Shown here: in pieces, positions 1-26,656 of the stretch
Position numbering within the stretch: the stretch's first letter is position 1
Layout: each line of letters opens with the position of its first letter
IMG/VR virus record: IMGVR_UViG_2681813268_000004
DNA length: 31,296 nucleotides
Source: a virus
Taxonomy: Duplodnaviria > Heunggongvirae > Uroviricota > Caudoviricetes
Strand: one strand, 5' to 3'
Notes under the pieces: generated by a model
Database searches by the model: none
The model's input: only the letters and a program-made list of their open reading frames with translations
Told to the model about the DNA's origin: nothing
Program-made: the position numbers and the translations under genes

Positions 1-677
1 CGGAAATCAAACCCTCGCCCGGCGGCGACACGCCATCGGGGCCGTCTGAAGATGCATCCGTACGCACAATCTCCCTGTTGCCGACAGCCGGAGATGCTGC
101 TGCGCAGGGCTGGAGCATTAAGAATGGCGGAATTCAGTTGTCAGATGGTGTATTTAAGATCACCAAGCAGAGCAATAAAGCCTGGTCCCTGACGCGCCCG
201 GTGGATGACGCAGTCTCCCTGCTGACACGGGGTGGCAGACTGAGCTGTAAGTTTCGACTGTCAGGCGCACTGACCAACAACCAGTTCGGTCTGGGAATTT
301 ATCTGTATACCGATGTAGCGTTACCTGACGTCGTGGCGATGACCGGGACTGGTAACCCGTTCCTGATGTCGTTCTTCACCCAGACCACAGACGGCAAACT
401 GAATCTGATGCATCACAAGAAAGCAGGAAACACAAAGTTGGGCGAGTTCGGGAATTACAGTAACGACTGGCTGACGCTGGAGCTGGTGTTCACCGCCGGC
501 AGTGCCACGGTTACTCCGAAACTGAATGGAGTGGCTGGCCCGGCATTCCAGGTCATAAAAGACAGTCTGACAGTGGGACTAAATGCACTGACGCTGACGG
601 ATATTACCAAAAATGCAACGTATGGCGTTGAGATAGAAAGTCTGGTGCTGGAGATAAATGCACCGGCATCATCATAA
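1..677 (+). CDS. Late-region protein, C-terminal portion; the reading frame is open to the window start, so the 5' end lies upstream. Function unknown.
   Basis: Frame containing the listed ORF 78..677 has no stop back to position 1; the listed M at 78 is a TTG. Stop at 675-677. Sits immediately upstream of the holin. Confidence 0.5.
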
Positions 678-761
678 AAAGTGAGCCAGTCAAATGGAAG
701 GTATCGTTAAACTCACCGGTAGTGTCAGTGGGTCGTCTGAGACGCCTGCATGAGTTATCAG

Positions 762-795
762 AGCCATCAGTACTTAACTGGTGGCTTTTTTATTG
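762..795 (+). terminator. Putative intrinsic terminator or hairpin between the upstream ORF and the holin
   Basis: Stem agccatcag / ctggtggct (one G-U pair) with 7-nt loop, followed by TTTTTTATT. Seen directly; the copy at about 1238-1272 has one extra T. Confidence 0.35.
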
Positions 796-826
796 TTGTC
801 AGCTTCCGGATAACGGGAGACGGGGT

Positions 827-1042
827 ATGTACCAGATGGAAAAAATCACAACAGGTGTGTCATACACCACGTCAGCGGTGGGAACGGGCTACTGGTTCCT
901 GCAGTTGCTGGACAGGGTTTCCCCGTCTCAGTGGGCGGCAATAGGCGTGCTGGGGAGTCTGCTGTTTGGGCTGCTGACATATCTGACTAACCTGTATTTC
1001 AAAATCAGAGAGGACCGTCGTAAGGCTGCACGGGGAGAGTAA
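827..1042 (+). CDS. S: Class II pinholin-type holin, 71 aa, dual-start MYQM (copy 1)
   Basis: ATG at 827 and second in-frame Met at codon 4; two hydrophobic segments and charged C-terminus ([13 protein letters not shown]); position directly upstream of the endolysin. Recalled similarity to phage 21 / Stx-phage S holins. Confidence 0.75.
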
Positions 1043-1061
1043 TTCAATGACTCAAAACTAT

Positions 1062-1062
1062 N
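1062..1062. other. Single-N junction; downstream sequence re-starts at the equivalent of position 587
   Basis: n at 1062; 1063.. matches 587.. with a few mismatches. Confidence 0.9.
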
Positions 1063-1537
1063 GCTGACGCTGACGGATATTACCAAAAATGCAGCGTATG
1101 GCGTTGAGATAGAAAGTCTGGTGCTGGAGATAAATGCACCGGCATCATCATAAAAAGTGAGCCAGCCAAATGGAAGGTATCGTTAAACTCACCGGTAGTG
1201 TCAGTGGGTCGTCTGAGATGCCTGCATGAGTTATCAGAGCCATCAGTACTTAACTGGTGGCTTTTTTTATTGTTGTCAGCTTCCGGATAACGGGAGACGG
1301 GGTATGTACCAGATGGAAAAAATCACAACAGGTGTGTCATACACCACGTCAGCGGTGGGAACGGGCTACTGGTTCCTGCAGTTGCTGGACAGGGTTTCCC
1401 CGTCTCAGTGGGCGGCAATAGGCGTGCTGGGGAGTCTGCTGTTTGGGCTGCTGACATATCTGACTAACCTGTATTTCAAAATCAGAGAGGACCGTCGTAA
1501 GGCTGCACGGGGAGAGTAATTCAATGACTCAAAACTA
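1063..1537 (+). repeat. Near-identical direct repeat of 587..1061 (3' end of upstream ORF, intergenic region, holin)
   Basis: Direct comparison: same sequence with SNPs (gcaacg/gcagcg, cagtca/cagcca, gagacg/gagatg) and a 6T versus 7T homopolymer. Confidence 0.85.
1304..1519 (+). CDS. S: Class II pinholin-type holin, 71 aa (copy 2, translation identical to copy 1)
   Basis: ATG at 1304; same [10 protein letters not shown]... protein as 827..1042. Confidence 0.75.
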
Positions 1538-1874
1538 TGAACTGATTGTGAAAGGGATCCGCAATTTTGAGAATAAAGTTACGGTAACTTTAGCGTTACG
1601 GGACAAAAAACGCTTTGACGGTGAAATTTTTGACCTGGACATCTCGCTGGACCGTGTTGAAGGTGCCGCGCTGGAGTTTTATGAGGCAGCAGCCAGAAGG
1701 AGCATCAGACAGGTCTTCCTGGATGTTGCTGCCGGGTTATGTGAAGGGGATGAGCAGTCGCCGGAAAAGCGCCCCGTAATTTTAGAGGCGCAGAATGTGT
1801 GGATAACCTACAAAGGAAAGCTACCAGGAAGAATTACTGGTTCTCTGAAGACTCCTCCGGAATCACAACCTTAA
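1524..1874 (+). CDS. Hypothetical protein encoded between holin and endolysin (116 aa)
   Basis: ATG 4 nt after the holin stop; 116-codon ORF; its first 14 nt are also present at 1048-1061 before the N junction. No motif recognised. Confidence 0.55.
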   Translation: MTQNYELIVKGIRNFENKVTVTLALRDKKRFDGEIFDLDISLDRVEGAALEFYEAAARRSIRQVFLDVAAGLCEGDEQSPEKRPVILEAQNVWITYKGKLPGRITGSLKTPPESQP

Positions 1875-1937
1875 GTCACTGACCAGAACAGATAAACCTG
1901 TCCGTGGGCAGAAACCGATAAATCCTGATAAATATCC

Positions 1938-2471
1938 ATGAACGCAAAAATCAGATACGGCCTGTCGGCTGCCGTTCTGGCACTGATTGCCGTCGGTGCG
2001 CCCGCGCCTGATATTCTCGACCAGTTTCTGGATGAAAAAGAGGGTAACCACACTACGGCATACCGCGATGGTTCCGGCATCTGGACCATCTGTCGGGGGG
2101 CCACGATGGTGGATGGAAAACCCGTTTTTCCCGGTATGAAACTGTCGAAGGAAAAATGCGACCAGGTCAACGCCATTGAGCGTGATAAGGCGCTGGCATG
2201 GGTGGAGAAAAACATCAAAGTGCCATTGAGCGAACCCCAGAAAGCGGGGATCGCGTCATTCTGTCCGTACAACATTGGTCCCGGTAAGTGTTTCCCGTCG
2301 ACGTTTTATAAACGAATTAATGCAGGTGATCGCAGGGGAGCGTGTGAGGCGATTCGCTGGTGGATTAAGGACGGTGGCAGAGACTGCCGTATTCGTTCAA
2401 ACAACTGCTACGGTCAGGTATCCCGTCGTGACCAGGAGAGTGCGCTGGCGTGCTGGGGTATCGACAGATAA
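1938..2471 (+). CDS. R: Endolysin, T4-lysozyme-like with N-terminal signal-anchor-release (SAR) hydrophobic segment
   Basis: 177 aa; N-terminal YGLSAAVLALIAVGAPAP hydrophobic stretch followed by a lysozyme-like core (E..D..T arrangement); recalled resemblance to phage 21 / Stx-phage R. Confidence 0.85.
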   Translation: MNAKIRYGLSAAVLALIAVGAPAPDILDQFLDEKEGNHTTAYRDGSGIWTICRGATMVDGKPVFPGMKLSKEKCDQVNAIERDKALAWVEKNIKVPLSEPQKAGIASFCPYNIGPGKCFPSTFYKRINAGDRRGACEAIRWWIKDGGRDCRIRSNNCYGQVSRRDQESALACWGIDR

Positions 2472-2563
2472 GCAGAATATTTTGCTGAAAAATAAGGCAT
2501 GGCCACGCGGGCGGATAACACGAAATCCTGCGAACTGGCGAAACGTAAGTGAATAAAAGTAAA

Positions 2564-2600
2564 AACCCCGTTTGTTGGCAGCAAGCGGGGTTTTGTTTTT
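2564..2600 (+). terminator. Putative rho-independent terminator downstream of R
   Basis: aaaaccccg ... cggggtttt inverted repeat followed by a T-rich run (ttttgttttt). Confidence 0.4.
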
Positions 2601-2665
2601 ATGGCAGTAAGCTATGGGAGGCTGCCTTGATTGATTTTAGCAAACTGATTAGGGAGTTGCGACTC

Positions 2666-2761
2666 ATGATTAGTCAATTACCAAACTGGAAATTTTTGCT
2701 GGTCTGGAGCATCCCTTTTTTATGGGTAGTATCCCAGTTAATTGTGGCAATTAAGGGGTAG
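2666..2761 (+). CDS. Small hydrophobic peptide (31 aa), hypothetical
   Basis: agggag 8 nt upstream of ATG 2666; translation MISQLPNWKFLLVWSIPFLWVVSQLIVAIKG; stop TAG 2759-2761. Confidence 0.3.
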   Translation: MISQLPNWKFLLVWSIPFLWVVSQLIVAIKG

Positions 2762-2763
2762 CT

Positions 2764-2895
2764 ATGTCAGACAAACTCATAACGCCGGCAAAGGTCCTGT
2801 GTGTGATTGTCGGTATTTCATTTTCACTAATGCTGGTTGCTCTTTTTCTGTCCCTCGCCTGGGTGATGTTGTCTTCGTCGGGGCTGCTGGGGTGA
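2764..2895 (+). CDS. Small hydrophobic peptide (43 aa), hypothetical; its hydrophobic segment resembles the Rz N-terminal segment
   Basis: ATG 2764, 2 nt after the previous stop, preceded by aagggg; translation MSDKLITPAKVLCVIVGISFSLMLVALFLSLAWVMLSSSGLLG. Confidence 0.3.
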   Translation: MSDKLITPAKVLCVIVGISFSLMLVALFLSLAWVMLSSSGLLG

Positions 2896-3014
2896 CAGTG
2901 ACTGATGACATCAGCAGAGCGCTGGCTTTTGCTATTAAGTGGGTGGCTGTTGGTATTGCTGTGTCTCCGATGCTATATGGGCTGGCAAAACTGGTCATTG
3001 CGCTGAAATCGTGA
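2892..3014 (+). CDS. Small hydrophobic peptide (about 38-40 aa), hypothetical; start uncertain (GTG at 2892 or 2898)
   Basis: GTG overlaps the previous TGA stop; translation ..TDDISRALAFAIKWVAVGIAVSPMLYGLAKLVIALKS; no in-frame ATG. Confidence 0.25.
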   Translation: MTVTDDISRALAFAIKWVAVGIAVSPMLYGLAKLVIALKS

Positions 3015-3025
3015 ACTTTAAAAAG

Positions 3026-3112
3026 ATGAGTGCTGAACTTATTCGGGCAATGGCATTTGCCATTCGTATTGTGGCCATTGCTGTTCTGGTCTGGGCAATC
3101 CGTTGGTGGTGA
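3026..3112 (+). CDS. Small hydrophobic peptide (28 aa), hypothetical
   Basis: ATG 3026; translation [28 protein letters not shown]; stop TGA 3110-3112, 1 nt before the Rz ATG. Confidence 0.25.
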
Positions 3113-3113
3113 T

Positions 3114-3581
3114 ATGAACCGTGTTCTGTGTGTGGTGATTATTGTCATGCTGGTGGCCTGTGGTGCGCTTAGTCTGGGGCTGAATCATTACCGTGATAAC
3201 GCCATTACCTACAAAGCCCAGCGCGACAAAAATGTCAGAGAACTGAAGCTGGCGAACGCGGCAATTACTGACATGCAGATGCGTCAGCGTGATGTTGCTG
3301 CGCTCGATGCAAAATACTCGAGGGAATTAGCCGATGCGAGAGCTGAAAATGAAACTCTTCGCGCTGACGTTGCCGCTGGTCGTAAGCGCCTGCGTATCAA
3401 CGCCACCTGTCCAGGTCCCGTGCGTGAAGCCACCGGCACCGCCCGCGTGGATAATGCAACCGGCCCCCGACTGGCAGACACCGCTGAACGGGATTATTTC
3501 ACCCTCAGAGAGCGGCTGATGACGATGCACAAGCAACTGGAAGGGGCGCAGGAATATATCCGCACTCAGTGCCTGAAATAA
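3114..3581 (+). CDS. Rz: Inner-membrane spanin Rz (i-spanin), 155 aa
   Basis: From ATG 3114 the protein ([40 protein letters not shown]...) aligns by recall with lambda Rz along its length. The listed ORF start at 3030 is a GTG extension. Confidence 0.85.
3334..3519 (+). CDS. Rz1: Outer-membrane lipoprotein spanin Rz1 (o-spanin), embedded in the +1 frame of Rz
   Basis: Lipobox LVVSAC and proline-rich [30 protein letters not shown], matching lambda Rz1 by recall; wholly inside Rz in another frame. Start may be the second ATG at 3349. Confidence 0.75.
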
Positions 3582-3834
3582 GTTTTGCTGATGCGCGGTA
3601 TTGTCGCCGTATCCCCGCATTAACAGAGACCGCAGCCCGACCGGGAGACTCCTCTGCGCGAGTGTGCGGGGATAATCAAAAACGATACACACCGGGGTTT
3701 ACCGCGTTAACGGAGCGCGGCGTTGTCCCCTCATAGTCGCCAGTCCGGTGCGATGGTGGAAGAAACCGGACTACATTGAAAATGATAACCATTATCATTT
3801 TTGCGGGTCCTTTCCGGCGATCCGGGCCGTTACG

Positions 3835-3846
3835 GGGCGGCGACCT
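3835..3846. other. cos: cosN cohesive-end site (lambda-type 12-nt overhang GGGCGGCGACCT)
   Basis: Exact 12-mer gggcggcgacct followed by cgcgggttttcgctatttatgaaaattt, as in lambda cos by recall; about 170 bp upstream of Nu1. Confidence 0.8.
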
Positions 3847-4015
3847 CGCGGGTTTTCGCTATTTATGAAAATTTTTAGGGAAAAATCAGATCCGTTCTTC
3901 TTCTTTTTAACTGATTGATTATCAATAGAATTTTAAAAATATAAAAGGATCTGACAAAGGCTGTTTTTGTTAGAAAACGCCATTTTCAGATCCTTTCTGG
4001 TTCCCGGGGGAGTGT

Positions 4016-4564
4016 ATGAACGTCAATAAGAAAAAACTGGCCGATATTTTTGGCGTTGATGTCAGGACCATCACCGCCTGGCAGAGTCAGGGGTTACCAC
4101 TAGTTTCTGGTGGAGGGAAAGGGACTGAATCAGTTTTTGATACAACTGCTGCCATTCAGTGGTATGCGCAGAGGGAAGCTGATATTGAAAACGAAAAACT
4201 CCGTAAAGAGATCGAGGATTTGAGGGCTGCCAGCGAATCAGACCTTCAGCCCGGCACCATTGATTACGAACGTTACCGACTGACGAAGGCACAGGCCGAT
4301 GCACAGGAGCTGAAAAATGCTCGTGAGGAAGGCCTTGTCCTCGAGACGGAGTTATTTACCTACATCTTTCAGCGAGTGGCACAGAATATATCAGGGATCC
4401 TTGTCCGTGTCCCTCAGACACTGCAGCGTAAATACCCTGATATATCACCCGTACATCTTGATGCTGTGAAAACTGAAATCGCGAAAGCATCCGATGTGGC
4501 TTCTGAAGCCGGTGAGAATGTGCGCAGGTGGATTGATGATTTCAGACGAACTGAGGGCGGCTAA
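4016..4564 (+). CDS. nu1: Terminase small subunit
   Basis: 182 aa; [36 protein letters not shown].. aligns by recall with lambda Nu1 (N-terminal winged helix-turn-helix). Confidence 0.9.
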
Positions 4565-6464
4565 TTCTGCAGGAGCGATAGCAACCGGCCTCCTTGCGCT
4601 AAAAATTCCTGTCCCTCTGACGACAGTTCAGTGGGCAGATCGACATTATTACCTTCCGAAAGAGTCATCTTACACCCCGGGGCGGTGGGAAACACTGCCG
4701 TTTCAGGTTGCCATCATGAACAGCATGGGGAATGACCGGATCCGCACTGTTAATCTGATTAAATCTGCCCGTGTTGGTTATACAAAGATGTTGCTGGGAG
4801 TGGAGGCTTATTTTATTGAGCATAAATCACGCAACAGCCTTCTTTTCCAGCCCACGGATTCTGCTGCTGAAGATTTTATGAAATCTCATGTGGAACCCAC
4901 GATCAGGGATGTGCCGGTTTTACTCGATCTTGCACCGTGGTTTGGGCGTAAACATCGTGATAATACCCTCACGCTGAAACGTTTTTCATCGGGCGTGGGC
5001 TTCTGGTGCCTGGGCGGGGCTGCCGCTAAAAACTACCGTGAAAAATCCGTGGACGTGGTCTGCTATGACGAACTTTCCTCGTTCGAACCGGATGTCGAAA
5101 AAGAGGGTTCGCCAACCCTGCTTGGGGATAAACGTATTGAGGGCTCTGTATGGCCCAAATCCATTCGCGGCTCGACGCCTAAAATCAAAGGCACCTGCCA
5201 GATCGAAAAAGCGGCCAACGAGTCGGCGCATTTCATGCGTTTTTATGTGCCCTGCCCACACTGTGGGGAGGAGCAGTATCTGAAATTTGGCGATGAATCC
5301 ACGCCTTTTGGCCTTAAATGGGAGAAGGACAGCCCCGAAAGCGTTTTCTACCTCTGTGAACATCATGGCTGCGTGATCCATCAGTCTGAGCTTGACCAGA
5401 GCAACGGGCGGTGGATCTGTGAAAACACGGGGATGTGGACCCGTGACGGTCTGACGTTTTTCAGCGCCGCGGATAATGAAATTCCGCCGCCGCGCTCCAT
5501 CACGTTCCATATCTGGACGGCGTACAGTCCGTTCACCACCTGGGTACAGATAGTCTATGACTGGCTGGATGCACTGAAAGATCCCAACGGCCTGAAAACC
5601 TTTGTGAACACCACGCTGGGCGAGACCTGGGAAGAGGCCGTGGGCGAAAAACTCGATCACCAGGTACTGATGGATAAGGTCGTGCATTACACGGCGGCGG
5701 TGCCAGCCCGGGTGGTTTATCTGACGGCGGGCATTGACTCGCAGCGAAACCGTTTTGAGATGTATGTCTGGGGATGGGCACCGGGAGAGGAAGCTTTTCT
5801 GGTGGATAAAATCATCATTATGGGCCGTCCCGATGAGGAAGAGACGCTGTTACGTGTGGATGCGGCGATCAACAAAAAATACTGCCATGCAGACGGAACC
5901 GAAATGACCATTTCCCGTGTCTGCTGGGACACCGGGGGGATCGATGGTGAAATTGTCTATCAGAGGTCAAAAAAACACGGTGTTTTCCGGGTGCTGCCGG
6001 TAAAAGGCGCATCTGTCTATGGCAAGCCGGTGATCACCATGCCGAAAACCCGCAATCAGCGGGGCGTGTATCTGTGTGAAGTGGGGACGGACACCGCAAA
6101 AGAAATTCTCTATGCCCGTATGAAAGCCGATCCCACGCCTGCGGATGAAGCCACGTCGTATGCCATCCATTTTCCTGATGATCCGGAGATTTTTTCGCAG
6201 ACAGAGGCGCAGCAACTGGTCGCGGAAGAGCTTGTGGAGAAGTGGGAAAAAGGAAAGATGCGTCTGCTGTGGGATAACAAAAAGCGGCGTAACGAAGCGC
6301 TGGACTGCCTGGTGTATGCCTATGCGGCATTACGTGTGTCCGTGCAACGCTGGCAGCTTGATCTGGCTGTACTGGCAAAATCCCGGGAAGAAGAGACGAC
6401 CCGGCCAACCCTTAAAGAACTGGCAGCGAAGCTGTCCGGAGGAGTGAATGGTTACAGTCGCTGA
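4536..6464 (+). CDS. A: Terminase large subunit (ATPase/endonuclease)
   Basis: About 642 aa from ATG 4536, overlapping the Nu1 3' end as in lambda; long colinear recalled similarity to lambda gpA (..[14 protein letters not shown].., ..[10 protein letters not shown]..). The listed start at 4494 is a non-ATG extension. Confidence 0.9.
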
Positions 6465-18539: not shown

Positions 18540-18865
18540 AAACCTTCCGCTGGAAAGTGAAACCCGGGATGGATGTGACATCGGCTCCTTCCGTCAGGGA
18601 GGTGCGCTTTGGTGATGGCTATTCCCAGCGTGCGCCTGCCGGGCTGAACGCTGACCTGAAAACGTACAGCGTGACGCTGTCTGTCTCCCGTGAGGAGGCC
18701 ACGGCGCTGGAGTCGTTTCTGGAAGAGCACGGGGGCTGGAAAGCCTTTCTGTGGACGCCGCCTTATGAGTGGCGGCAGATAAAGGTGACCTGCGCAAAAT
18801 GGTCGTCGCGGGTCAGTATGTTGCGTGTTGAGTTCAGCGCAGAGTTTAAACAGGTGGTGAACTGA
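18536..18865 (+). CDS. M: Minor tail protein M
   Basis: 109 aa; MKTFRWKVKPGMDV...PSVR.VRFGDGYSQRAPAGLNA.LKTYSVTLSV.REEAT.LESFLEEHGGWK.FLWTPPYEWRQIKVTCAKWSSRVSML matches lambda gpM by recall. Confidence 0.9.
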   Translation: MKTFRWKVKPGMDVTSAPSVREVRFGDGYSQRAPAGLNADLKTYSVTLSVSREEATALESFLEEHGGWKAFLWTPPYEWRQIKVTCAKWSSRVSMLRVEFSAEFKQVVN

Positions 18866-19563
18866 TGCAGGATATCCGGCAGGAAACACTGAATGAATGC
18901 ACCCGTGCGGAGCAGTCGGCCAGCGTGGTGCTCTGGGAAATCGATCTGACAGAGGTCGGTGGAGAACGTTATTTTTTCTGTAATGAGCAGAACGAAAAAG
19001 GTGAGCCGGTCACCTGGCAGGGGAGGCAGTATCAGGCGTATCCCATTCAGGGGAGCGGTTTTGAACTGAATGGCAAAGGCACCAGTACGCGGCCCACGCT
19101 GGCAGTCTCTAACCTGTACGGCATGGTCACCGGTATGGTGGAAGATATGCAGAGTCTGGTCGGCGGAACGGTGGTCCGGCGTAAGGTTTACGCCCGTTTT
19201 CTGGATGCGGTGAACTTCGTCAACGGAAACAGAGACGCCGATCCGGAGCAGGAGGTGATCAGCCGCTGGCGCATCGAGCAGTGCAGCGAACTGAGCGCGG
19301 TGAGTGCCTCCTTTGTACTGTCCACGCCGACGGAAACGGATGGCGCTGTTTTTCCGGGGCGTATCATGCTGGCCAACACCTGCACCTGGACCTATCGCGG
19401 CGATGAGTGCGGTTATCACGGTCCGGCGGTCGCGGATGAATATGACCAGCCAACGTCCGATATCACGAAGGATAAATGCAGCAAATGCCTGAGCGGTTGT
19501 AAGTTCCGCAATAACGTCGGCAACTTTGGCGGCTTCCTTTCCATTAACAAACTTTCGCAGTAA
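18865..19563 (+). CDS. L: Minor tail protein L (block 1 allele)
   Basis: 232 aa; TGATG overlap with M; cysteine-rich C-terminus (..CTWTYRGDECGY..KCSKCLSGCKFRNN..). Confidence 0.9.
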   Translation: MQDIRQETLNECTRAEQSASVVLWEIDLTEVGGERYFFCNEQNEKGEPVTWQGRQYQAYPIQGSGFELNGKGTSTRPTLAVSNLYGMVTGMVEDMQSLVGGTVVRRKVYARFLDAVNFVNGNRDADPEQEVISRWRIEQCSELSAVSASFVLSTPTETDGAVFPGRIMLANTCTWTYRGDECGYHGPAVADEYDQPTSDITKDKCSKCLSGCKFRNNVGNFGGFLSINKLSQ

Positions 19564-19574
19564 NNNNNNNNNNN
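19564..19574. other. 11-N gap or junction
   Basis: n run read directly; sequence resumes inside M. Confidence 0.95.
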
Positions 19575-19723
19575 TTCTGGAAGAGCACGGGGGCTGGAAA
19601 GCCTTTCTGTGGACGCCGCCTTATGAGTGGCGGCAGATAAAGGTGACCTGCGCAAAATGGTCGTCGCGGGTCAGTATGCTGCGTGTTGAGTTCAGCGCAG
19701 AGTTTGAACAGGTGGTGAACTGA
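19575..19723 (+). CDS. M: M, 3' fragment (5' end cut by the N junction)
   Basis: Matches 18716..18865 of the complete M with one change (K to E near the C-terminus). Confidence 0.6.
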
Positions 19724-20421
19724 TGCAGGATATCCGGCAGGAAACACTGAATGAATGCACCCGTGCGGAGCAGTCGGCCAGCGTGGTGCTCTGGGAAATC
19801 GATCTGACAGAGGTCGGTGGAGAACGTTATTTTTTCTGTAATGAGCAGAACGAAAAAGGTGAGCCGGTCACCTGGCAGGGGCGACAGTATCAGCCGTATC
19901 CCATTCAGGGGAGTGGTTTTGAACTGAATGGCAAAGGCACCAGTACGCGCCCCACGCTGATGGTTTCTAACCTGTACGGTATGGTCACCGGGATGGCGGA
20001 AGATCTACAGAGTCTGGTCGGCGGAACGGTGGTCCGGCGTAAGGTTTACGCCCGTTTTCTGGATGCGGTGAACTTCGTCAACGGAAACAGTGACGCCGAT
20101 CCGGAGCAGGAGGTGATCAGCCGCTGGCGCATTGAGCAGTGCAGCGAACTGAGCGCGGTGAGTGCCTCTTTTGTACTGTCCACGCCGACGGAAACAGATG
20201 GCGCTGTTTTTCCGGGACGTATCATGCTGGCCAACACCTGCACCTGGACCTATCGCGGCGATGAGTGCGGTTATCACGGTCCGGCGGTCGCGGATGAATA
20301 TGACCAGCCAACGTCCGACATCACGAAGGATAAATGCAGCAAATGCCTGAGTGGTTGTAAGTTCCGCAATAACGTCGGCAACTTTGGCGGCTTCCTTTCC
20401 ATTAACAAACTTTCGCAGTAA
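19723..20421 (+). CDS. L: Minor tail protein L (block 2 allele)
   Basis: 232 aa; differs from the block-1 L at a few residues (QAYP/QPYP, TLAVS/TLMVS, GNRD/GNSD). Confidence 0.85.
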   Translation: MQDIRQETLNECTRAEQSASVVLWEIDLTEVGGERYFFCNEQNEKGEPVTWQGRQYQPYPIQGSGFELNGKGTSTRPTLMVSNLYGMVTGMAEDLQSLVGGTVVRRKVYARFLDAVNFVNGNSDADPEQEVISRWRIEQCSELSAVSASFVLSTPTETDGAVFPGRIMLANTCTWTYRGDECGYHGPAVADEYDQPTSDITKDKCSKCLSGCKFRNNVGNFGGFLSINKLSQ

Positions 20422-20426
20422 ATCCC

Positions 20427-21170
20427 ATGACAGAGACAGAATCAGCGATTCTGGCGCACGCCCGGCGATGTGCGCCAGCGGAGTCGTGTGGCTTCGTGGT
20501 AAGAACGCCGGAGGGAGACAGGTATCTTCCCAGCGAGAATATCTCCGGTGAGCCGGAGGAACGGTTCCGGATGGCTCCGGAGGACTGGCTGCGGGCACAA
20601 ATGCAGGGTGAGATTGTGGCGCTGGTCCACAGTCATCCCGGTGGTCTGCCCTGGCTGAGTGAGGCTGACCGGCGGCTGCAGGTGCAGAGTGATTTGCCGT
20701 GGTGGCTGGTCTGCCGGGGGGCGATTCACAAGTTCCGCTGTGTGCCGCATCTCACCGGGCGGCGCTTTGAGCACGGGGTGACGGACTGTTACACGCTGTT
20801 CCGGGATGCTTATCATCTGGCAGGGATTGAGATGCCGGATTTTCATCGCGGGGATGACTGGTGGCGTAACGGTCAGAATCTCTATCTTGACAATATGGAG
20901 GTGACGGGTTTTTACCGTGTCGCACTGACAGAGGCACAGCCGGGCGATGTGCTGCTGTGCTGTTTTGGTTCATCGGTGCCGAATCATGCCGCCATTTACT
21001 GTGGTGACGGCGAGCTGCTGCACCATATTCCTGAACAACTGAGCAAACGAGAGAGGTACACCGACAAATGGCAGCGACGCACACACTCCCTCTGGCGTCA
21101 CCGGGCATGGCGCGCATCTGCCTTTACGGGGATTTACAACGATTTGGTCGCCGCATCGACCTTCGTGTGA
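20427..21170 (+). CDS. K: Tail tip assembly protein K; JAMM/MPN metalloprotease-like N-domain plus NlpC/P60-like C-domain
   Basis: 247 aa; JAMM motif E..HSHPGGLPWLSEAD (H-x-H-x7-S-x2-D) and a Cys/His pair (DCYTLF ... NHAAIY) read directly. Confidence 0.85.
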   Translation: MTETESAILAHARRCAPAESCGFVVRTPEGDRYLPSENISGEPEERFRMAPEDWLRAQMQGEIVALVHSHPGGLPWLSEADRRLQVQSDLPWWLVCRGAIHKFRCVPHLTGRRFEHGVTDCYTLFRDAYHLAGIEMPDFHRGDDWWRNGQNLYLDNMEVTGFYRVALTEAQPGDVLLCCFGSSVPNHAAIYCGDGELLHHIPEQLSKRERYTDKWQRRTHSLWRHRAWRASAFTGIYNDLVAASTFV

Positions 21171-21709
21171 AAACGGGGGCTGAAGCCATCCGGGCACTGG
21201 CCACACAGCTCCCGGCGTTTCGTCAGAAACTGAGTGACGGCTGGTATCAGGTGCGCATTGCCGGGCGTGATGCAGGTGAAACCGAATTGTCTGCCCGTCT
21301 TAATGAGCCGCTGGCAAATGGTGCAGTGATCCACATAGTACCGCGTCTGGTGGGAGCTAAAAGTGGCGGTGTGTTTCAGGCGGTGCTGGGGGCGGCTGTT
21401 ATGGCGGTTGCTATATGGATGCCGGGGGTAGGAATTATGGCGAGTAATCTGCTGTTTTCTCTCGGTGCCAGTATGACGCTTGGCGGTGTTGCACAGATGC
21501 TGGCACCGAAAGCCAGAACTCCCCGTACACAGACAACGGATAACGGTAAGCAGAACACGTATTTCTCGTCACTGGATAACATGGTTGCCCAGGGCAATGT
21601 TCTGCCCGTTCTGTACGGTGAAATGCGCGTGGGGTCACGTGTGGTTTCTCAGGAGATCAGCACGGCAGACGAAGGGGATGGTGGTCAGGTTGTGGTGATT
21701 GGTCGCTGA
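21068..21709 (+). CDS. I: Tail tip assembly protein I (allele with ..DAGETELSARLNEPLANG.. centre)
   Basis: 213 aa; starts inside the 3' end of K in another frame; conserved N-terminus MAATHTLPLASPGMARICLYGDLQRFGRRIDL and C-terminus ..GEMRVGSRVVSQEISTADEGDGGQVVVIGR. Confidence 0.85.
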   Translation: MAATHTLPLASPGMARICLYGDLQRFGRRIDLRVKTGAEAIRALATQLPAFRQKLSDGWYQVRIAGRDAGETELSARLNEPLANGAVIHIVPRLVGAKSGGVFQAVLGAAVMAVAIWMPGVGIMASNLLFSLGASMTLGGVAQMLAPKARTPRTQTTDNGKQNTYFSSLDNMVAQGNVLPVLYGEMRVGSRVVSQEISTADEGDGGQVVVIGR

Positions 21710-21769
21710 TGCAAAATGTTTTATGTGAAACCGCCTGCGGGCGGTTTTGTCGTTTATGGAGCGTGAGGA

Positions 21770-22371
21770 ATGGGTAAAGGCAGCAGTAAGGGGCATACCC
21801 CGCGCGAAGCGAAGGACAACCTGAAATCCACGCAGTTGCTGAGTGTGATTGATGCCATCAGCGAAGGGCCGGTTGACGGTCCGGTGGATGGATTAAAAAG
21901 CGTGCTGCTGAACGGTACGCCGGTCCTGGACAGCGAGGGGAAGACAAACTTTTCCGGTGTTACGGTGGTGTTCCGTGCAGGTGAGCAGGAGCAGACACCG
22001 CCGGAGGGTTTTGAATCCTCCGGCTCCGAGACGGTGCTGGGTACGGAAGTGAAATATGACACGCCGATCACCCGGACCATCACGTCGGCAAACATCGACC
22101 GTCTGCGCCTGACCTTCGGTGTGCAGGCACTGGTGGAAACCACCTCAAAGGGTGACCGGAATCCGTCGGAAGTCCGCCTGCTGGTTCAGATACAGCGTAA
22201 CGGTGGCTGGGTGACGGAAAAAGACATCACCATTAAGGGCAAAACCACTTCGCAGTATCTGGCCTCGGTGGTGGTGGGTAACCTGCCGCCGCGCCCGTTT
22301 AATATCCGGATGCGCAGGATGACACCGGACAGCACCACAGACCAGCTGCAGAACAAAACGCTCTGGTCGTC
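21770..22371 (+). CDS. J: Tail tip / host-specificity protein J, 5' fragment (cut by N gap)
   Basis: MGKGSSKGHTPREAKDNLKSTQLLSVIDAISEGP.. matches the lambda gpJ N-terminus by recall; preceded by a ccgcc-tgcg-ggcgg hairpin. Confidence 0.8.
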
Positions 22372-22382
22372 NNNNNNNNNNN
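22372..22382. other. 11-N gap or junction
   Basis: n run read directly; sequence resumes at the same internal M position as after the first gap. Confidence 0.95.
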
Positions 22383-22531
22383 TTCTGGAAGAGCACGGGG
22401 GCTGGAAAGCCTTTCTGTGGACGCCGCCTTATGAGTGGCGGCAGATAAAGGTGACCTGCGCAAAATGGTCGTCGCGGGTCAGTATGCTGCGTGTTGAGTT
22501 CAGCGCAGAGTTTGAACAGGTGGTGAACTGA
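22383..22531 (+). CDS. M: M, 3' fragment (second redundant copy)
   Basis: Same sequence as 19575..19723. Confidence 0.6.
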
Positions 22532-23229
22532 TGCAGGATATCCGGCAGGAAACACTGAATGAATGCACCCGTGCGGAGCAGTCGGCCAGCGTGGTGCTCT
22601 GGGAAATCGATCTGACAGAGGTCGGTGGAGAACGTTATTTTTTCTGTAATGAGCAGAACGAAAAAGGTGAGCCGGTCACCTGGCAGGGGCGACAGTATCA
22701 GCCGTATCCCATTCAGGGGAGTGGTTTTGAACTGAATGGCAAAGGCACCAGTACGCGCCCCACGCTGATGGTTTCTAACCTGTACGGTATGGTCACCGGG
22801 ATGGCGGAAGATCTACAGAGTCTGGTCGGCGGAACGGTGGTCCGGCGTAAGGTTTACGCCCGTTTTCTGGATGCGGTGAACTTCGTCAACGGAAACAGTG
22901 ACGCCGATCCGGAGCAGGAGGTGATCAGCCGCTGGCGCATTGAGCAGTGCAGCGAACTGAGCGCGGTGAGTGCCTCTTTTGTACTGTCCACGCCGACGGA
23001 AACAGATGGCGCTGTTTTTCCGGGACGTATCATGCTGGCCAACACCTGCACCTGGACCTATCGCGGCGATGAGTGCGGTTATCACGGTCCGGCGGTCGCG
23101 GATGAATATGACCAGCCAACGTCCGACATCACGAAGGATAAATGCAGCAAATGCCTGAGTGGCTGTAAGTTTCGCAATAACGTCGGCAACTTTGGCGGCT
23201 TCCTTTCCATTAACAAACTTTCGCAGTAA
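22531..23229 (+). CDS. L: Minor tail protein L (block 3; protein identical to block 2)
   Basis: 232 aa; same translation as 19723..20421. Confidence 0.85.
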   Translation: MQDIRQETLNECTRAEQSASVVLWEIDLTEVGGERYFFCNEQNEKGEPVTWQGRQYQPYPIQGSGFELNGKGTSTRPTLMVSNLYGMVTGMAEDLQSLVGGTVVRRKVYARFLDAVNFVNGNSDADPEQEVISRWRIEQCSELSAVSASFVLSTPTETDGAVFPGRIMLANTCTWTYRGDECGYHGPAVADEYDQPTSDITKDKCSKCLSGCKFRNNVGNFGGFLSINKLSQ

Positions 23230-23234
23230 ATCCC

Positions 23235-23978
23235 ATGACAGAGACAGAATCAGCGATTCTGGCGCACGCCCGGCGATGTGCTCCAGCGGAGTCGTGCGGC
23301 TTCGTGGTAAGAACGCCGGAGGGGGAAAGATATTTCCCCTGCGTGAATATCTCCGGTGAGCCGGAGGCGTATTTCCGTATGTCGCCGGAAGACTGGCTGC
23401 AGGCAGAGATGCAGGGTGAGATTGTGGCACTGGTCCACAGCCACCCCGGTGGTCTGCCCTGGCTGAGTGAGGCCGACCGGCGGCTGCAGGTGCAGAGTGA
23501 TTTGCCGTGGTGGCTGGTCTGCCGGGGGGCGATTCACAAGTTCCGCTGTGTGCCACATCTTACCGGGCGGCGCTTTGAGCACGGGGTGACGGACTGTTAC
23601 ACGCTGTTCCGGGATGCTTACCATCTGGCGGGGATTGAGATGCCGGATTTTCATCGTGAGGATGACTGGTGGCGTCACGGTCAGAATCTCTATCTGGATA
23701 ATCTGGAGGCCACAGGGCTGTATCAGGTGCCGTTGTCAGCGGCGCAGCCGGGCGATGTGCTGCTGTGCTGTTTTGGTTCATCGGTGCCGAATCATGCCGC
23801 CATTTACTGTGGTGACGGCGAGCTGCTGCACCATATTCCTGAACAACTGAGCAAACGAGAGAGGTATACCGACAAATGGCAGCGACGCACACACTCCCTC
23901 TGGCGTCACCGGGCATGGCACGCATCTGCCTTTACGGGGATTTGCAACGATTTGGCCGCCGCATCGACCTTCGTGTGA
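23235..23978 (+). CDS. K: Tail tip assembly protein K (block 3 allele)
   Basis: 247 aa; same JAMM and Cys/His motifs; differs from block 2 in patches (EGERYFPCVNISGEPEAYFRMSPEDWLQAEMQ versus EGDRYLPSENISGEPEERFRMAPEDWLRAQMQ). Confidence 0.85.
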   Translation: MTETESAILAHARRCAPAESCGFVVRTPEGERYFPCVNISGEPEAYFRMSPEDWLQAEMQGEIVALVHSHPGGLPWLSEADRRLQVQSDLPWWLVCRGAIHKFRCVPHLTGRRFEHGVTDCYTLFRDAYHLAGIEMPDFHREDDWWRHGQNLYLDNLEATGLYQVPLSAAQPGDVLLCCFGSSVPNHAAIYCGDGELLHHIPEQLSKRERYTDKWQRRTHSLWRHRAWHASAFTGICNDLAAASTFV

Positions 23979-24547
23979 AAACGGGTGCCGAAGCCATCCG
24001 GGCGATGGCCACACAGCTCCCTGCGTTTCGTCAGAAGCTGAGCGACGGCTGGTATCAGGTGCGTATTGCCGGGCAGGATGTTAGCACGTCCGGATTAACG
24101 GCACAGTTACATGAGGCTCTGCCTGACGGCGCTGTGATTCATATTGTTCCCAGAGTCGCCGGGGCCAAGTCAGGTGGTGTATTCCAGATTGTCCTGGGAG
24201 CAGCCGCCATTGCCGGATCATTCTTTACCGCCGGAGCCACCCTTGCAGCATGGGGGGCTGCCATTGGTGCCGGTGGTATGACCGGCATTCTGTTTTCTCT
24301 CGGTGCCAGTATGGTGCTCGGCGGTGTGGCTCAGATGCTGGCACCGAAAGCCAGAACTCCCCGCACACAGACAACGGATAACGGTAAGCAGAACACCTAT
24401 TTCTCCTCACTGGATAACATGGTTGCCCAGGGCAATGTTATGCCTGTTCTGTATGGTGAAATGCGCGTGGGGTCACGTGTGGTATCTCAGGAGATCAGCA
24501 CGGCAGACGAAGGGGACGGTGGTCAGGTTGTGGTGATTGGTCGCTGA
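23876..24547 (+). CDS. I: Tail tip assembly protein I (allele with ..DVSTSGLTAQLHEALPDG.. centre)
   Basis: 223 aa; conserved ends, divergent glycine/alanine-rich hydrophobic middle. Confidence 0.85.
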   Translation: MAATHTLPLASPGMARICLYGDLQRFGRRIDLRVKTGAEAIRAMATQLPAFRQKLSDGWYQVRIAGQDVSTSGLTAQLHEALPDGAVIHIVPRVAGAKSGGVFQIVLGAAAIAGSFFTAGATLAAWGAAIGAGGMTGILFSLGASMVLGGVAQMLAPKARTPRTQTTDNGKQNTYFSSLDNMVAQGNVMPVLYGEMRVGSRVVSQEISTADEGDGGQVVVIGR

Positions 24548-24607
24548 TGCAAAATGTTTTATGTGAAATCGCCTCCGGGCGGTTTTATCGTTTATGGAGC
24601 ATGACGA

Positions 24608-24832
24608 ATGGGTAAAGGCAGCAGTAAGGGGCATACCCCGCGCGAAGCGAAGGACAACCTGAAGTCCACGCAGCTGCTGAGTGTGATCGATGCCATCAGC
24701 GAAGGGCCGGTTGAAGGTCCGGTGGATGGATTAAAAAGCGTGCTGCTGAACAGTACGCCGGTGCTGGACAGTGAGGGGAATACCAACATCTCCGGCGTCA
24801 CGGTGGTGTTCCGGGCAGGTGAGCAGGAGCAG
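24608..24832 (+). CDS. J: J, 5' fragment (cut by the N at 24833)
   Basis: Begins MGKGSSKGHTPREAK..; ends at the N junction, after which the sequence is mid-K. Confidence 0.7.
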
Positions 24833-24833
24833 N

Positions 24834-25367
24834 CCCGGTGGTCTGCCCTGGCTGAGTGAGGCTGACCGGCGGCTGCAGGTGCAGAGTGATTTGCCGTGGT
24901 GGCTGGTCTGCCGGGGGGCGATTCATAAGTTCCGCTGTGTGCCGCATCTCACCGGGCGGCGCTTTGAGCACGGGGTGACGGACTGTTACACGCTGTTCCG
25001 GGATGCTTATCATCTGGCGGGGATTGAGATGCCGAATTTTCATCGCGGGGATGACTGGTGGCGTCACGGTCAGAATCTCTATCTTGACAATATGGAGGCT
25101 ACTGGTTTTTACCGTGTCGCACTGACAGAGGCGCAGCCGGGCGATGTGCTGCTGTGCTGTTTTGGTTCATCGGTGCCGAATCATGCCGCCATTTACTGTG
25201 GTGACGGCGAGCTGCTGCACCATATTCCTGAACAACTGAGCAAACGAGAGAGGTATACCGACAAATGGCAGCGACGCACACACTCCCTCTGGCGTCACCG
25301 GGCATGGCACGCATCTGCCTTTACGGGGATTTGCAACGATTTGGCCGCCGCATCGACCTTCGTGTGA
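24834..25367 (+). CDS. K: K, 3' fragment (begins at ..PGGLPWLSEADRR.. after the N junction)
   Basis: In-frame continuation of the K C-terminal two-thirds; the listed ORF 24771..25367 is a J-K chimera across the N. Confidence 0.6.
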   Translation, partial: PGGLPWLSEADRRLQVQSDLPWWLVCRGAIHKFRCVPHLTGRRFEHGVTDCYTLFRDAYHLAGIEMPNFHRGDDWWRHGQNLYLDNMEATGFYRVALTEAQPGDVLLCCFGSSVPNHAAIYCGDGELLHHIPEQLSKRERYTDKWQRRTHSLWRHRAWHASAFTGICNDLAAASTFV

Positions 25368-25936: not shown

Positions 25937-25996
25937 TGCAAAATGTTTTATGTGAAATCGCCTCCGGGCGGTTTTATCGTTTATGGAGCATGACGA

Positions 25997-26655
25997 ATGG
26001 GTAAAGGCAGCAGTAAGGGGCATACCCCGCGCGAAGCGAAGGACAACCTGAAGTCCACGCAGCTGCTGAGTGTGATCGATGCCATCAGCGAAGGGCCGGT
26101 TGAAGGTCCGGTGGATGGATTAAAAAGCGTGCTGCTGAACAGTACGCCGGTGCTGGACAGTGAGGGGAATACCAACATCTCCGGCGTCACGGTGGTGTTC
26201 CGGGCAGGTGAGCAGGAGCAGTCACCGCCGGAGGGATTTGAATCCTCCGGCTCCGAGACGGTGCTGGGTACGGAAGTGAAATATGACACGCCGATCACCC
26301 GGACCATCACGTCGGCAAACATTGACCGACTGCGTTTTACCTTCGGTGTACAGGCACTGGTGGAAACCACCTCAAAGGGAGACAGGAATCCGTCTGAAGT
26401 TCGCCTGCTGGTTCAGATACAGCGTAACGGTGGCTGGGTGACGGAAAAAGACATCACCATTAAGGGCAAAACCACCTCGCAGTATCTGGCCTCGGTGGTG
26501 GTGGATAACCTGCCGCCGCGCCCGTTTAATATCCGGATGCGCAGAATGACGCCGGACAGCACCACAGACCAGCTGCAGAACAAAACGCTCTGGTCGTCAT
26601 ACACCGAAATCATCGATGTGAAACAGTGCTACCCGAACACGGCACTGGTCGGCGT
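25997..26655 (+). CDS. J: J, 5' fragment (cut by the N at 26656)
   Basis: gpJ N-terminal 219 codons. Confidence 0.7.
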
Positions 26656-26656
26656 N

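What the first reader, a model, noticed from the sequence alone, without database searches (positions are those of the whole stretch)
2549..3113. Run of four short hydrophobic ORFs wedged between the endolysin R and the spanin Rz
In lambda, Rz follows R directly. Here about 640 bp separate them and contain no long ORF. Instead there are four consecutive small ORFs (31, 43, about 38 and 28 codons), each essentially one hydrophobic helix, packed tightly (stop-to-start spacings 2 nt, overlapping GTGA, 1 nt to Rz); the first two have recognisable Shine-Dalgarno-like motifs. Peptide 2 (..KVLCVIVGISFSLMLVALFLSL..) resembles the Rz N-terminal membrane segment (..[21 protein letters not shown]..), and peptides 3 and 4 resemble each other (AFAIKWVAVGIAV versus [13 protein letters not shown]). 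Candidates are decayed duplications of the Rz membrane anchor, small membrane proteins that modulate lysis, or non-coding spacer that happens to translate hydrophobically. These ORFs are below the 60-aa cut-off of the supplied track.
Basis: seen in the sequence. Interest (0 to 1): 0.55.

Follow-up and report, generated by a model that had tools for sequence, protein, structure and literature searches.

The report
Small membrane-protein genes between endolysin and spanin
The gap between the cell-wall-cutting enzyme gene and the outer-membrane-disrupting gene of this E. coli prophage holds four tightly packed small genes from conserved but uncharacterised families of one-helix membrane proteins; two of the four are shortened copies, and none has a known function.

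Summary
R ends at 2471 and Rz starts at 3114.

Sequence alone is only mildly unusual: a chain of four packed ORFs arises in 2.6% of shuffles, and every + frame is hydrophobic. Comparison with about 400 related loci decides the matter.

- The ORFs belong to three PHROG families of unknown function, seen only in Escherichia, Shigella and Salmonella phages.
- They are protein-coding: pN/pS is 0.08-0.39 in frame and 0.5-6.6 out of frame, and ORF length is conserved.
- Pep2 (43 aa) is full length.
- Pep1 probably starts at TTG 2627 (44 aa).
- Pep3 and pep4 are 5'-truncated copies of one 50-60 aa family.
- 2546-3146 is a nearly invariant mosaic block set in variable R and Rz.

The slot is modular. 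Other phages carry pep3-pep2, ant-pep2 (Stx phages), pep1 alone or pep4 alone. A different lysis cassette carries pep3-pep2 followed by a lipoprotein.

A conserved terminator hairpin (2562-2594) precedes the ORFs and no + strand promoter was found, so expression is probably late and Q-dependent.

Similarity of pep2 to the Rz anchor is not supported. Pep3 and pep4 are paralogues. Function is unknown; a role in lysis is inferred from position only.

The parts
1938..2471 (+). SAR-type endolysin R (phage 21-like), the upstream neighbour.
   Evidence: phrog_7 endolysin, E = 2e-62. RefSeq calls it 'lysozyme'. The N-terminal weakly hydrophobic segment was read.
2472..2545 (+). Leader after the R stop. 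It is polymorphic among otherwise identical cassettes and conserved at 75-93% in other R-Rz slot types.
   Evidence: Variable positions cluster at 2487-2545. Alignment A4. blastn pieces.
2562..2594 (+). Intrinsic-terminator-like hairpin with U tracts on both strands. It lies inside the 70-aa ORF that PGAP sometimes calls from GTG 2549.
   Evidence: Consensus scan. dG -24.2 kcal/mol, z -5.2, 0 of 200 shuffles as stable. Kept in 5 diverse loci with one doubly compensated pair (UG / AU / GC).
2546..3146 (.). Nearly invariant mosaic block: terminator, four ORFs and the first 11 Rz codons. It sits between variable R and Rz sequence.
   Evidence: Among 38 distinct haplotypes only 15 singleton or low-frequency variable sites fall in 2546-3146. 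By contrast 21% of R sites and 36% of Rz sites vary.
2627..2761 (+). Pep1, a 44-aa single-pass membrane peptide if started at TTG 2627 (SD GGGAGG at 2615-2620).
   Evidence: phrog_6632: E = 1e-12 here and 4e-23 for the 45-aa Salmonella phage SPN3UB homologue, matching the whole 45-position profile. SD dG -10.2. The N-terminal 27 aa are conserved against SPN3UB. 82 of 83 loci are intact. Diversity is too low for a selection test.
2764..2895 (+). Pep2, a 43-aa full-length single-pass membrane peptide (RefSeq WP_001280935).
   Evidence: phrog_4906, E = 4.5e-21. Length is 43-44 aa in 273 of 277 loci. pN/pS is 0.385 in frame against 0.86 and 1.64 out of frame; within one clade it is 0.107. It is intact in 159 of 162 loci that were chosen through pep3. 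It is full length in 276 phage records.
2892..3014 (+). Pep3', a 5'-truncated copy (38-40 aa from GTG 2898 or 2892) of a 60-aa family. It has lost the native SD, the start codon and about 22 codons.
   Evidence: phrog_3246, 1115 and 4493. Window 2896-3200 is collinear at 95.7% with L130, where pep3 is full length. Family alignments. Family pN/pS is 0.28, with variable sites 12/4/23 by codon position. RefSeq's 51-aa call starts on CTG 2859 with no SD.
3026..3112 (+). Pep4, a 28-aa short form (33 aa if started at GTG 3011) of the same family as pep3 (RefSeq WP_032140280). Its stop lies 1 nt before the Rz ATG.
   Evidence: phrog_4493, E = 4e-7. The full-length 50-aa form is in phage GER2 and prophage CP-933O. 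Long-form clades differ by 20.5 synonymous and 5.5 non-synonymous changes, pN/pS 0.08. The short form against L128 gives pN/pS 0.32, with ATG and length kept. There is no SD.
3114..3581 (+). Rz i-spanin with embedded Rz1 (3334-3519), the downstream neighbour.
   Evidence: PF03245, E = 2e-51, and phrog_13.

Best explanation
**What is shown.**
- 2549-3113 is an accessory gene cassette inside the late (lysis) operon of a phage-21-type lambdoid prophage.
- After the endolysin stop comes a conserved leader that ends in a terminator hairpin.
- Four small cistrons follow, packed end to start and running straight into Rz.
- They belong to three families of uncharacterised small proteins of enterobacterial phages.
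- Each protein has a short polar N-terminal segment followed by one hydrophobic helix and almost no C-terminal tail.
- As families they are protein-coding and under purifying selection.
- The array in this window is a recombinant. Pep1 and pep2 are full length. Pep3' and pep4 are 5'-shortened copies of one 50-60 aa family, whose best-conserved part is the N-terminal motif MKNGLExDAPVTxEI.

**What is inferred.**
- No + strand promoter was found and a terminator sits just upstream. The peptides would therefore be made only from the Q-antiterminated late transcript, together with holin, endolysin and spanin.
- Pep1, pep2 and pep3' have their own SD-like sites. Pep4 and Rz would be reached by termination-reinitiation.
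- By the positive-inside rule the peptides would insert N-in, C-out into the inner membrane.
- Their most likely job is to act there at lysis time through helix-helix or cytoplasmic-tail contacts with the holin or with the component that follows them (Rz, or a lipoprotein in another cassette), adjusting when or how lysis proceeds.
- I put about 0.85 on 'real conserved small membrane-protein genes' and about 0.3 on 'lysis modulators'.
For: **Annotation and family membership.**
- RefSeq annotates three or four hypothetical proteins at these positions in identical DNA of E. coli 55989 and others.
- Each ORF matches a PHROG family of unknown function.

**Selection in the ORF frame.**
- Pep2: 273 of 277 loci encode 43-44 aa. 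pN/pS is 0.385 in frame against 0.86 and 1.64 out of frame, and 0.107 within one clade.
- Pep3 long form: 31 distinct DNAs, variable sites 12/4/23 by codon position, pN/pS 0.28 overall and 0.012 for codons 13-30.
- Pep4 long form: 20.5 synonymous against 5.5 non-synonymous differences, pN/pS 0.08 in frame against 1.46 and 6.58 out of frame.

**Distribution and modularity.**
- Pep2 is intact in 159 of 162 loci that were selected through pep3 alone.
- Pep2 is full length in 276 phage records, including Stx phages such as VT2-Sakai, 24B and Min27.
- The modules recur in different orders and next to different neighbours, always with SD or start-stop coupling preserved.

**Translation and transcription signals.**
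- The terminator is conserved with a compensatory pair.
- No + strand promoter-like site was found in 1800-4100.

**Structure.**
- The AlphaFold model of the 60-aa form shows helix 3-14, a loop, then a long helix 23-59, with pLDDT about 90 over residues 31-60.
Against: - No expression data were found for any of these ORFs.
- The cassette in this window is almost invariant, so selection cannot be measured on the four ORFs as they stand here.
- Pep3' and pep4 lack the most conserved part of their family, and pep4 has no SD. They may be inert remnants.
- Eight loci carry a frameshifted pep2 C-terminus, so loss is tolerated at times.
- Pep1 has too little diversity for a selection test.
- The lysis role rests on position alone. 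The same pep3-pep2 pair sits in cassettes with unrelated holins and a soluble GH108 endolysin. That argues against a partner specific to pinholin or SAR endolysin.
- K-12 DLP12 and Qin, where R and Rz overlap with no insert, show that the genes are dispensable for a lysis cassette.
Confidence: 0.65

Rival explanations
1. Partial remnant. The families are real genes, but in this window only pep1 and pep2 are functional. Pep3' and pep4 are untranslated or inert leftovers of the recombination that placed pep1-pep2 in front of a pep3-pep4-Rz unit. They persist only because the block is young.
For: - Window 2896-3200 is collinear with L130, where pep3 is a full 60-aa gene. Here its first ~22 codons, SD and ATG are replaced by the end of pep2.
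- The lost part includes most of the segment with pN/pS 0.012 and the family motif.
- Pep4 has no SD.
- The block is nearly invariant, so it is young or recently spread.
Against: - In-frame GTG starts overlap the preceding stop codons, and GTG 2898 has an SD-like site of -9.0 kcal/mol.
- A diverged short pep4 allele in L128 keeps its ATG, its 28-aa length and pN/pS 0.32.
- Short forms of 38-40 aa occur on many contigs: P0151 on 56 and P0188 on 99.
Confidence: 0.35
2. Late-expressed membrane peptides with a role outside lysis. Examples are blocking DNA entry by superinfecting phage, or interfering with a host membrane protein. On this view they sit in the R-Rz slot only because it tolerates insertions.
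For: - The slot also accepts an unrelated gene, ant, in Stx phages.
- The peptides occur with unrelated holin and endolysin types.
- The strongly conserved TM core and cytoplasmic motif suggest a specific partner, which need not be a phage protein.
Against: - The ORFs are preceded by a terminator, and no + strand promoter was found. Expression from the repressed prophage, which is usual for exclusion genes, is therefore unlikely.
- There is no match in PADLOC.
- The last small ORF is always coupled to the outer-membrane-step gene that follows.
Confidence: 0.15
3. Relay cistrons. What matters is that ribosomes translate through the insert so that Rz, which has a start close to the preceding stop, is still reached. 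The peptide products themselves do nothing.
For: - Stops and starts are 1-2 nt apart or overlap all the way to Rz.
- The same TGGTGGTGA-T-ATG junction feeds Rz here and a lipoprotein gene in L128.
- In K-12 prophages R and Rz overlap directly.
Against: - A relay needs an open frame but not a particular sequence. Yet pN/pS is 0.08-0.39 in frame, and the TM core and the MKNGLExDAPVTxEI motif are nearly invariant.
- Rz has its own SD-like site of -8.1 kcal/mol.
Confidence: 0.1
4. Decayed duplications of the Rz N-terminal membrane anchor.
For: - A short match exists: KVLCVIV...MLVA in pep2 against [13 protein letters not shown] in Rz.
- The two also share a 12-nt repeat, 2794-2805 and 3123-3134, at 92% identity.
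- hhalign aligns 13 columns at 62% identity with a 4-residue gap.
Against: - BLASTP finds no alignment at E <= 100, and the hhalign probability is 2.6%.
- Pep2 has a conserved N-terminus of its own (MSDKLIT) and is under purifying selection.
- Pep1, pep3 and pep4 show no likeness to Rz.
- None of the ORFs matches PF03245.
Confidence: 0.04
5. Non-coding spacer whose T-rich + strand happens to translate into hydrophobic ORFs.
For: - All three + frames are hydrophobic.
- A four-ORF chain appears in 2.6% of shuffles.
- No Pfam or NCBIfam family matches.
Against: - Substitutions are frame-specific and biased to synonymous sites.
- Length is conserved across about 400 loci and 276 phage genomes.
- SD sites are kept at every junction.
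- Rfam finds no RNA family.
Confidence: 0.03

Closest known systems
PHROG families 6632, 4906 and 1115/3246/4493, and the RefSeq hypothetical proteins WP_001280935, WP_042004856, WP_032140280 and WP_001043230
   Same: The same sequences. The ORFs are already catalogued as hypothetical or 'transmembrane' proteins of E. coli, Shigella and Salmonella prophages and phages.
   Different: These entries carry no function. Start codons are set inconsistently (GTG 2549 through the terminator; CTG 2859). Many phage records leave the ORFs unannotated.
Mu gp25 'releasin' (DUF2730)
   Same: A small membrane-anchored protein with almost no periplasmic part, encoded within a few genes downstream of a SAR endolysin and acting in lysis (PMC9239132).
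   Different: Releasin is 99 aa, N-out/C-in, with a 73-aa cytoplasmic domain, and belongs to DUF2730. The peptides here are 28-60 aa, predicted N-in/C-out, have no Pfam match, and also occur next to a soluble GH108 endolysin.
Holins and antiholins (S21 pinholin, lambda S107, P1 LydB, P2 LysA)
   Same: Small inner-membrane proteins of the lysis cassette made from the late transcript. A weak local likeness exists between pep3 (KWVAVGIAVSP) and TMD2 of the window's pinholin ([11 protein letters not shown]).
   Different: There is no holin family match. hhalign probability is 1.6%. Each peptide has a single helix and no charged C-terminal tail. The cassette already has its own pinholin.
Rz/Rz1 two-component spanin
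   Same: An N-terminal membrane helix, a position in the same operon, and translational coupling into Rz.
   Different: The peptides have no periplasmic domain, no PF03245 match and no significant similarity to the Rz anchor.
Morons of lambdoid phages (for example bor, lom, HK97 gp15)
   Same: Extra genes inserted between conserved late genes and exchanged among phages as small modules.
   Different: A classical moron brings its own promoter and a downstream terminator and is expressed from the prophage. Here the terminator is upstream and no + strand promoter was found.

Membership tests
PHROG 4906 (pep2), 6632 (pep1), 1115/3246/4493 (pep3, pep4) | Significant match to the family profile over most of its length. 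| tested here: met
   E-values are 4.5e-21 (pep2), 1.3e-12 (pep1), 3.8e-27 (pep3) and 4.4e-7 (pep4). The full-length relatives score 5e-40 and 4e-23.
Protein-coding gene (as opposed to spacer) | Frame-specific excess of synonymous change, and conserved ORF length in independently sampled loci. | tested here: met
   This was met at the family level. It cannot be tested on the window's own nearly invariant block.
Protein-coding gene (as opposed to spacer) | Direct evidence of translation (Ribo-seq, mass spectrometry or tagging). | not testable with these tools
   No mention was found by accession or by peptide sequence in the held literature, nor in the supplements of two small-protein surveys.
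Rz i-spanin (PF03245) | N-terminal TMD plus a periplasmic coiled-coil domain, and a match to the Pfam model. | tested here: not met
   No Pfam hit for any of the four ORFs. There are at most 7 residues after the helix. No BLASTP alignment to Rz.
Holin / pinholin | Match to a holin family, and a charged cytoplasmic C-terminal tail after the last TMD. | tested here: not met
   No holin PHROG or Pfam hit. The C-termini are KG, SSSGLLG, KS and RWW. hhalign to the window's pinholin gives 1.6% probability.
Holin / pinholin | Lethal hole formation at a programmed time when expressed. | not testable with these tools
   This needs induction experiments.
Mu releasin (DUF2730) | DUF2730 domain, N-out/C-in topology, and a cytoplasmic domain of about 70 aa. 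| tested here: not met
   No Pfam match. Sizes are 28-60 aa, with the polar segment N-terminal to the helix. The releasin features are taken from PMC9239132.
Moron | Own promoter upstream and terminator downstream, allowing expression from the prophage. | tested here: inconclusive
   The consensus scan finds no + strand promoter in 1800-4100, and the only strong terminator lies upstream of the ORFs. A consensus scan cannot exclude weak or non-sigma-70 promoters.
Type I toxin-antitoxin | Small hydrophobic toxin ORF with its own promoter and an overlapping antisense RNA. | tested here: inconclusive
   One weak minus-strand promoter-like site lies at 2770-2741, facing the two-way terminator. Such sites are as frequent in shuffles (3 found, 2.3 expected). 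Rfam finds nothing.
Anti-phage defence proteins (PADLOC) | Match to a PADLOC model. | tested here: not met
   No hit at E <= 1 for any of the five proteins scanned: window pep1 and pep2, the full-length 60-aa pep3 and 50-aa pep4 relatives, and the 60-aa lipoprotein.

The most novel reading that the evidence does not exclude
The peptides could be a so-far undescribed class of partners of the outer-membrane step of lysis. They would be tail-anchored inner-membrane peptides that are translationally coupled to, and act with or restrain, whichever envelope-disrupting gene follows them. That gene is Rz/Rz1 in phage-21-type and Stx phages. In cassettes where no i-spanin was seen in the about 1.5 kb read downstream, it is a 60-aa lipoprotein (phrog_7528). 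In those cassettes pep3, pep2 and the lipoprotein might together replace a spanin.
Probability: 0.1. Interest if true: 0.75.

Novelty: new member of a known kind. Interest (0 to 1): 0.42.

Why it matters
- The lambdoid lysis cassette is one of the best-studied gene sets in biology. It is usually described as holin, endolysin and spanin.
- Parts of this insert match 2068 of 5426 complete E. coli genomes. Pep2 is present full length in 276 phage records, including the Stx phages VT2-Sakai, 24B and Min27. Many of those records do not annotate it.
- If the peptides tune lysis timing or spanin action, they would affect burst size and the timing of Shiga-toxin release.
- If they do nothing for lysis, they still mark the R-Rz junction as a slot where small membrane-protein genes are shuffled.
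- The practical gain now is better annotation. It gives likely true starts (TTG 2627 for pep1; the 60-aa and 50-aa long forms for the pep3/pep4 family), identifies a terminator inside a called ORF, and flags a doubtful CTG start.

Tried and rejected
**Searches with no result**
- Rfam at E <= 1 over 1-6000 found nothing.
- Pfam and NCBIfam gave nothing for the four ORFs.
- PADLOC gave nothing.
- A PDB sequence search with the family profile gave nothing.
- Two scans of one genome per GTDB species found no relative. The first used a concatenated query and the second the pep3 alignment. The family is therefore absent from species representatives, or missed by the few patterns used.
- K-12 DLP12 and Qin lack the insert, so K-12 small-protein data do not apply.

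**Literature**
- Accession numbers and peptide strings appear in no held paper.
- They appear in no held supplement of the Sakai and Salmonella small-protein surveys.
- A preprint on prophage Pas sRNAs concerns loci next to the holin-lysozyme operon, not the R-Rz gap.

**Ideas considered and rejected or left open**
- The minus-strand 123-aa ORF (2777-3148) was rejected. Reverse frames show pN/pS of 0.3-2.4, mostly no better than the out-of-frame controls.
- A type I toxin-antitoxin reading was considered because of the two-way terminator. It was left as unsupported.
- Homology of pep3 to pinholin TMD2 was tested and is not significant.
- Homology of pep2 to pep3 was tested and is not significant.

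**Structure**
- The AlphaFold model only confirms a helix-loop-helix shape. I ran no fold search because such a model cannot give meaningful matches.
Full report
**1. What is in the sequence**

The window is a lambdoid E. coli prophage with a phage-21-type lysis cassette:

| Feature | Coordinates | Support |
|---|---|---|
| Class II (pinholin-like) holin | 1316-1519, duplicated upstream | |
| YdfR/DUF1327 gene | 1524-1874 | |
| Endolysin R with an N-terminal weakly hydrophobic segment | 1938-2471 | |
| Rz, with Rz1 embedded at 3334-3519 | 3114-3581 | |

- In K-12 DLP12 and Qin, R and Rz overlap by 4 nt, so the comparison with the simple arrangement is fair.

**2. Is it more than chance?**

On the single sequence, barely.
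- A chain of four packed same-strand ORFs arises in 51 of 2000 dinucleotide shuffles.
- Every + strand frame reads hydrophobic, because the strand is T-rich.

SD-like sites are real for some starts and absent for others:

| Start | dG (kcal/mol) |
|---|---|
| pep1 TTG 2627 | -10.2 |
| pep1 ATG 2666 | -8.7 |
| pep2 | -8.5 |
| pep3 GTG 2898 | -9.0 |
| pep4 | about -2.5 (no SD) |

**3. Related sequences**

- The 644 nt between R and Rz match 2068 of 5426 complete E. coli genomes in part, and 587 over at least 80% of the length. Identity is 100% in strain 55989.
- RefSeq annotates three or four hypothetical proteins there.
- Each ORF hits a PHROG family of unknown function. None hits Pfam, NCBIfam, PADLOC or the PDB.
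- All named homologues come from Escherichia, Shigella and Salmonella, apart from one partial cluster that a source labels Pseudomonas aeruginosa, and are called hypothetical or transmembrane proteins.
- A profile search of 1.84 billion representative proteins finds only 23 clusters for the pep3/pep4 family.
- One genome per GTDB species gives no hit.

**4. The slot is modular**

I fetched about 400 loci from IMG/VR and from phage records.

| Type | Order of genes | Where seen |
|---|---|---|
| A | R, pep1, pep2, pep3', pep4, Rz | this window |
| B | R, pep3 (60 aa), pep2, Rz | E. coli prophages |
| C | R, ant, pep2, Rz | VT2-Sakai and other Stx phages |
| D | 3TM holin, GH108 endolysin, pep3, pep2, 60-aa lipoprotein | e.g. 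L089 |
| E | R, pep1 (45 aa), Rz | Salmonella phage SPN3UB |
| F | R, pep4 (50 aa), Rz | phage GER2, CP-933O |

Every junction keeps either an SD or a stop-start overlap.

**5. True gene forms**

- The pep3 family is 60 aa. It starts at an ATG preceded by AAGGAGAAC, about 35 nt after the terminator.
- The pep4 family is 50 aa with a homologous N-terminus.
- Intermediates (P0374, P0378) join the two C-terminal types.
- The best-conserved part of the family is MKNGLExDAPVTxEI.
- Window 2896-3200 is collinear at 95.7% with L130, where pep3 is full length. In the window the first ~22 codons are replaced by pep1-pep2. Pep3' and pep4 here are therefore shortened copies.
- The 70-aa ORF from GTG 2549 has no SD and runs through the terminator.
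- RefSeq's 51-aa protein starts on CTG 2859.

**6. Coding test**

| Family | In-frame result | Out-of-frame controls |
|---|---|---|
| Pep2, 33 distinct intact DNAs | pN/pS 0.385; 0.107 within one clade | 0.86 and 1.64 |
| Pep3 long form, 31 DNAs | variable sites 12/4/23 by codon position; pN/pS 0.28; 0.012 in codons 13-30 | 0.53 and 2.2 |
| Pep4 long clades | 20.5 synonymous, 5.5 non-synonymous; pN/pS 0.08 | 1.46 and 6.58 |
| Pep4 short form vs L128 | pN/pS 0.32, ATG and length kept | 0.84 and 1.92 |

- Pep2 is intact in 159 of 162 loci picked through pep3.
- Pep2 is full length in 276 phage records.
- Eight loci carry a frameshifted pep2 tail.
- Pep1 has too few variants to test.
- Reverse-strand frames show no comparable constraint.

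**7. The window's own cassette**

- Among 38 haplotypes, 2546-3146 has only scattered rare variants. By contrast 21% of R sites and 36% of Rz sites vary.
- The block therefore moves, or has recently spread, as a unit. Constraint on its four ORFs as arranged here cannot be measured.

**8. Transcription context**

- A hairpin at 2562-2594 has dG -24.2 kcal/mol and z -5.2, with U tracts on both sides.
- It is kept in diverse loci with one doubly compensated pair.
- No + strand sigma-70-like site was found in 1800-4100.
- It is established for lambdoid phages that Q-modified polymerase reads through terminators. I therefore infer late, Q-dependent expression. This is not shown.

**9. Shape of the proteins**

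- Each has a short polar N-terminal segment, one hydrophobic helix and a tail of 2-7 residues.
- The AlphaFold model of the 60-aa form gives helix 3-14, a loop, then helix 23-59.
- N-in/C-out topology follows from the positive-inside rule and is an inference.

**10.

- Pep3 and pep4 are paralogues.
- Pep2 versus the Rz anchor is not supported.
- Pep3 versus pinholin TMD2 is not supported.
- Pep2 versus pep3 is not supported.

**11. Function**

- Nothing in the held literature mentions these proteins.
- The closest described idea is an accessory membrane protein of lysis such as the Mu releasin, but its defining features are not met.
- Three facts point to an inner-membrane role at lysis time: the position, the late expression and the coupling to the following outer-membrane-step gene.
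- The peptides also occur with unrelated holins and endolysins. This argues against a partner specific to pinholin or SAR endolysin.
- I commit to 'lysis modulator' at about 0.3.
- I keep three alternatives open: exclusion-type function, relay cistrons, and inert remnants for pep3' and pep4.

**12. Verdict**

- The families are already catalogued as hypothetical proteins but are functionally uncharacterised.
- Interest is moderate.

Noticed in passing
window 588-1061 and 1064-1538: A ~476-bp tandem duplication at 99-100% identity duplicates the pinholin gene. An ambiguous base sits in the first copy (X in the ORF at 928-1086). It could be real or an assembly artefact.
   Followed up: partly
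window 18700-30200: Three to five diverged direct copies (82-100% identity) of 1.4-2.8 kb segments lie in the tail-tip region. This looks like several alleles concatenated by assembly, or an amplification.
   Followed up: no
window 2562-2594: A strong terminator hairpin with U tracts on both strands sits directly after the endolysin gene. It is conserved in E. coli and Salmonella phages with one compensatory pair. Its role inside a late operon is unexplained. The conserved leader 2472-2600 could also be a 3'UTR-derived RNA.
   Followed up: partly
window about 3837-3878: A lambda-type cos sequence (GGGCGGCGACCTCGCGGGTTTTCGCTATTTATGAAAATTTT) lies between Rz and the DUF1441 and terminase genes. 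I read it and recognised it from my own knowledge of lambda cos.
   Followed up: no
L089 1804-1986 (also L128 and about 40 other loci): In a different lysis cassette (Phage_holin_8, 3TM holin, GH108 endolysin) the pep3-pep2 pair is followed by a 60-aa lipoprotein (LVGC lipobox, phrog_7528) instead of Rz. No i-spanin-like ORF is seen within the about 1.5 kb read downstream.
   Followed up: partly
window 2859-3014 and 2549-2761: RefSeq WP_042004856 starts on CTG 2859 with no SD and overlaps the pep2 3' end. WP_001043230 starts at GTG 2549 and reads through the terminator. Both starts are probably mis-set.
   Followed up: yes
L003 2050-2184 (VT2-Sakai) and 276 phage records: The pep2 homologue between ant and Rz is unannotated in the VT2-Sakai reference record and in many Stx phage records.
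   Followed up: yes
8 IMG/VR loci (2 distinct DNAs) among those with a pep2-family ORF: These are pep2 alleles with a frameshifted C-terminus (...LVALRLDDVVFVGDAGVRGI) that still end at 43 aa. They read in the frame that RefSeq uses for its 51-aa pep3 call.
   Followed up: partly
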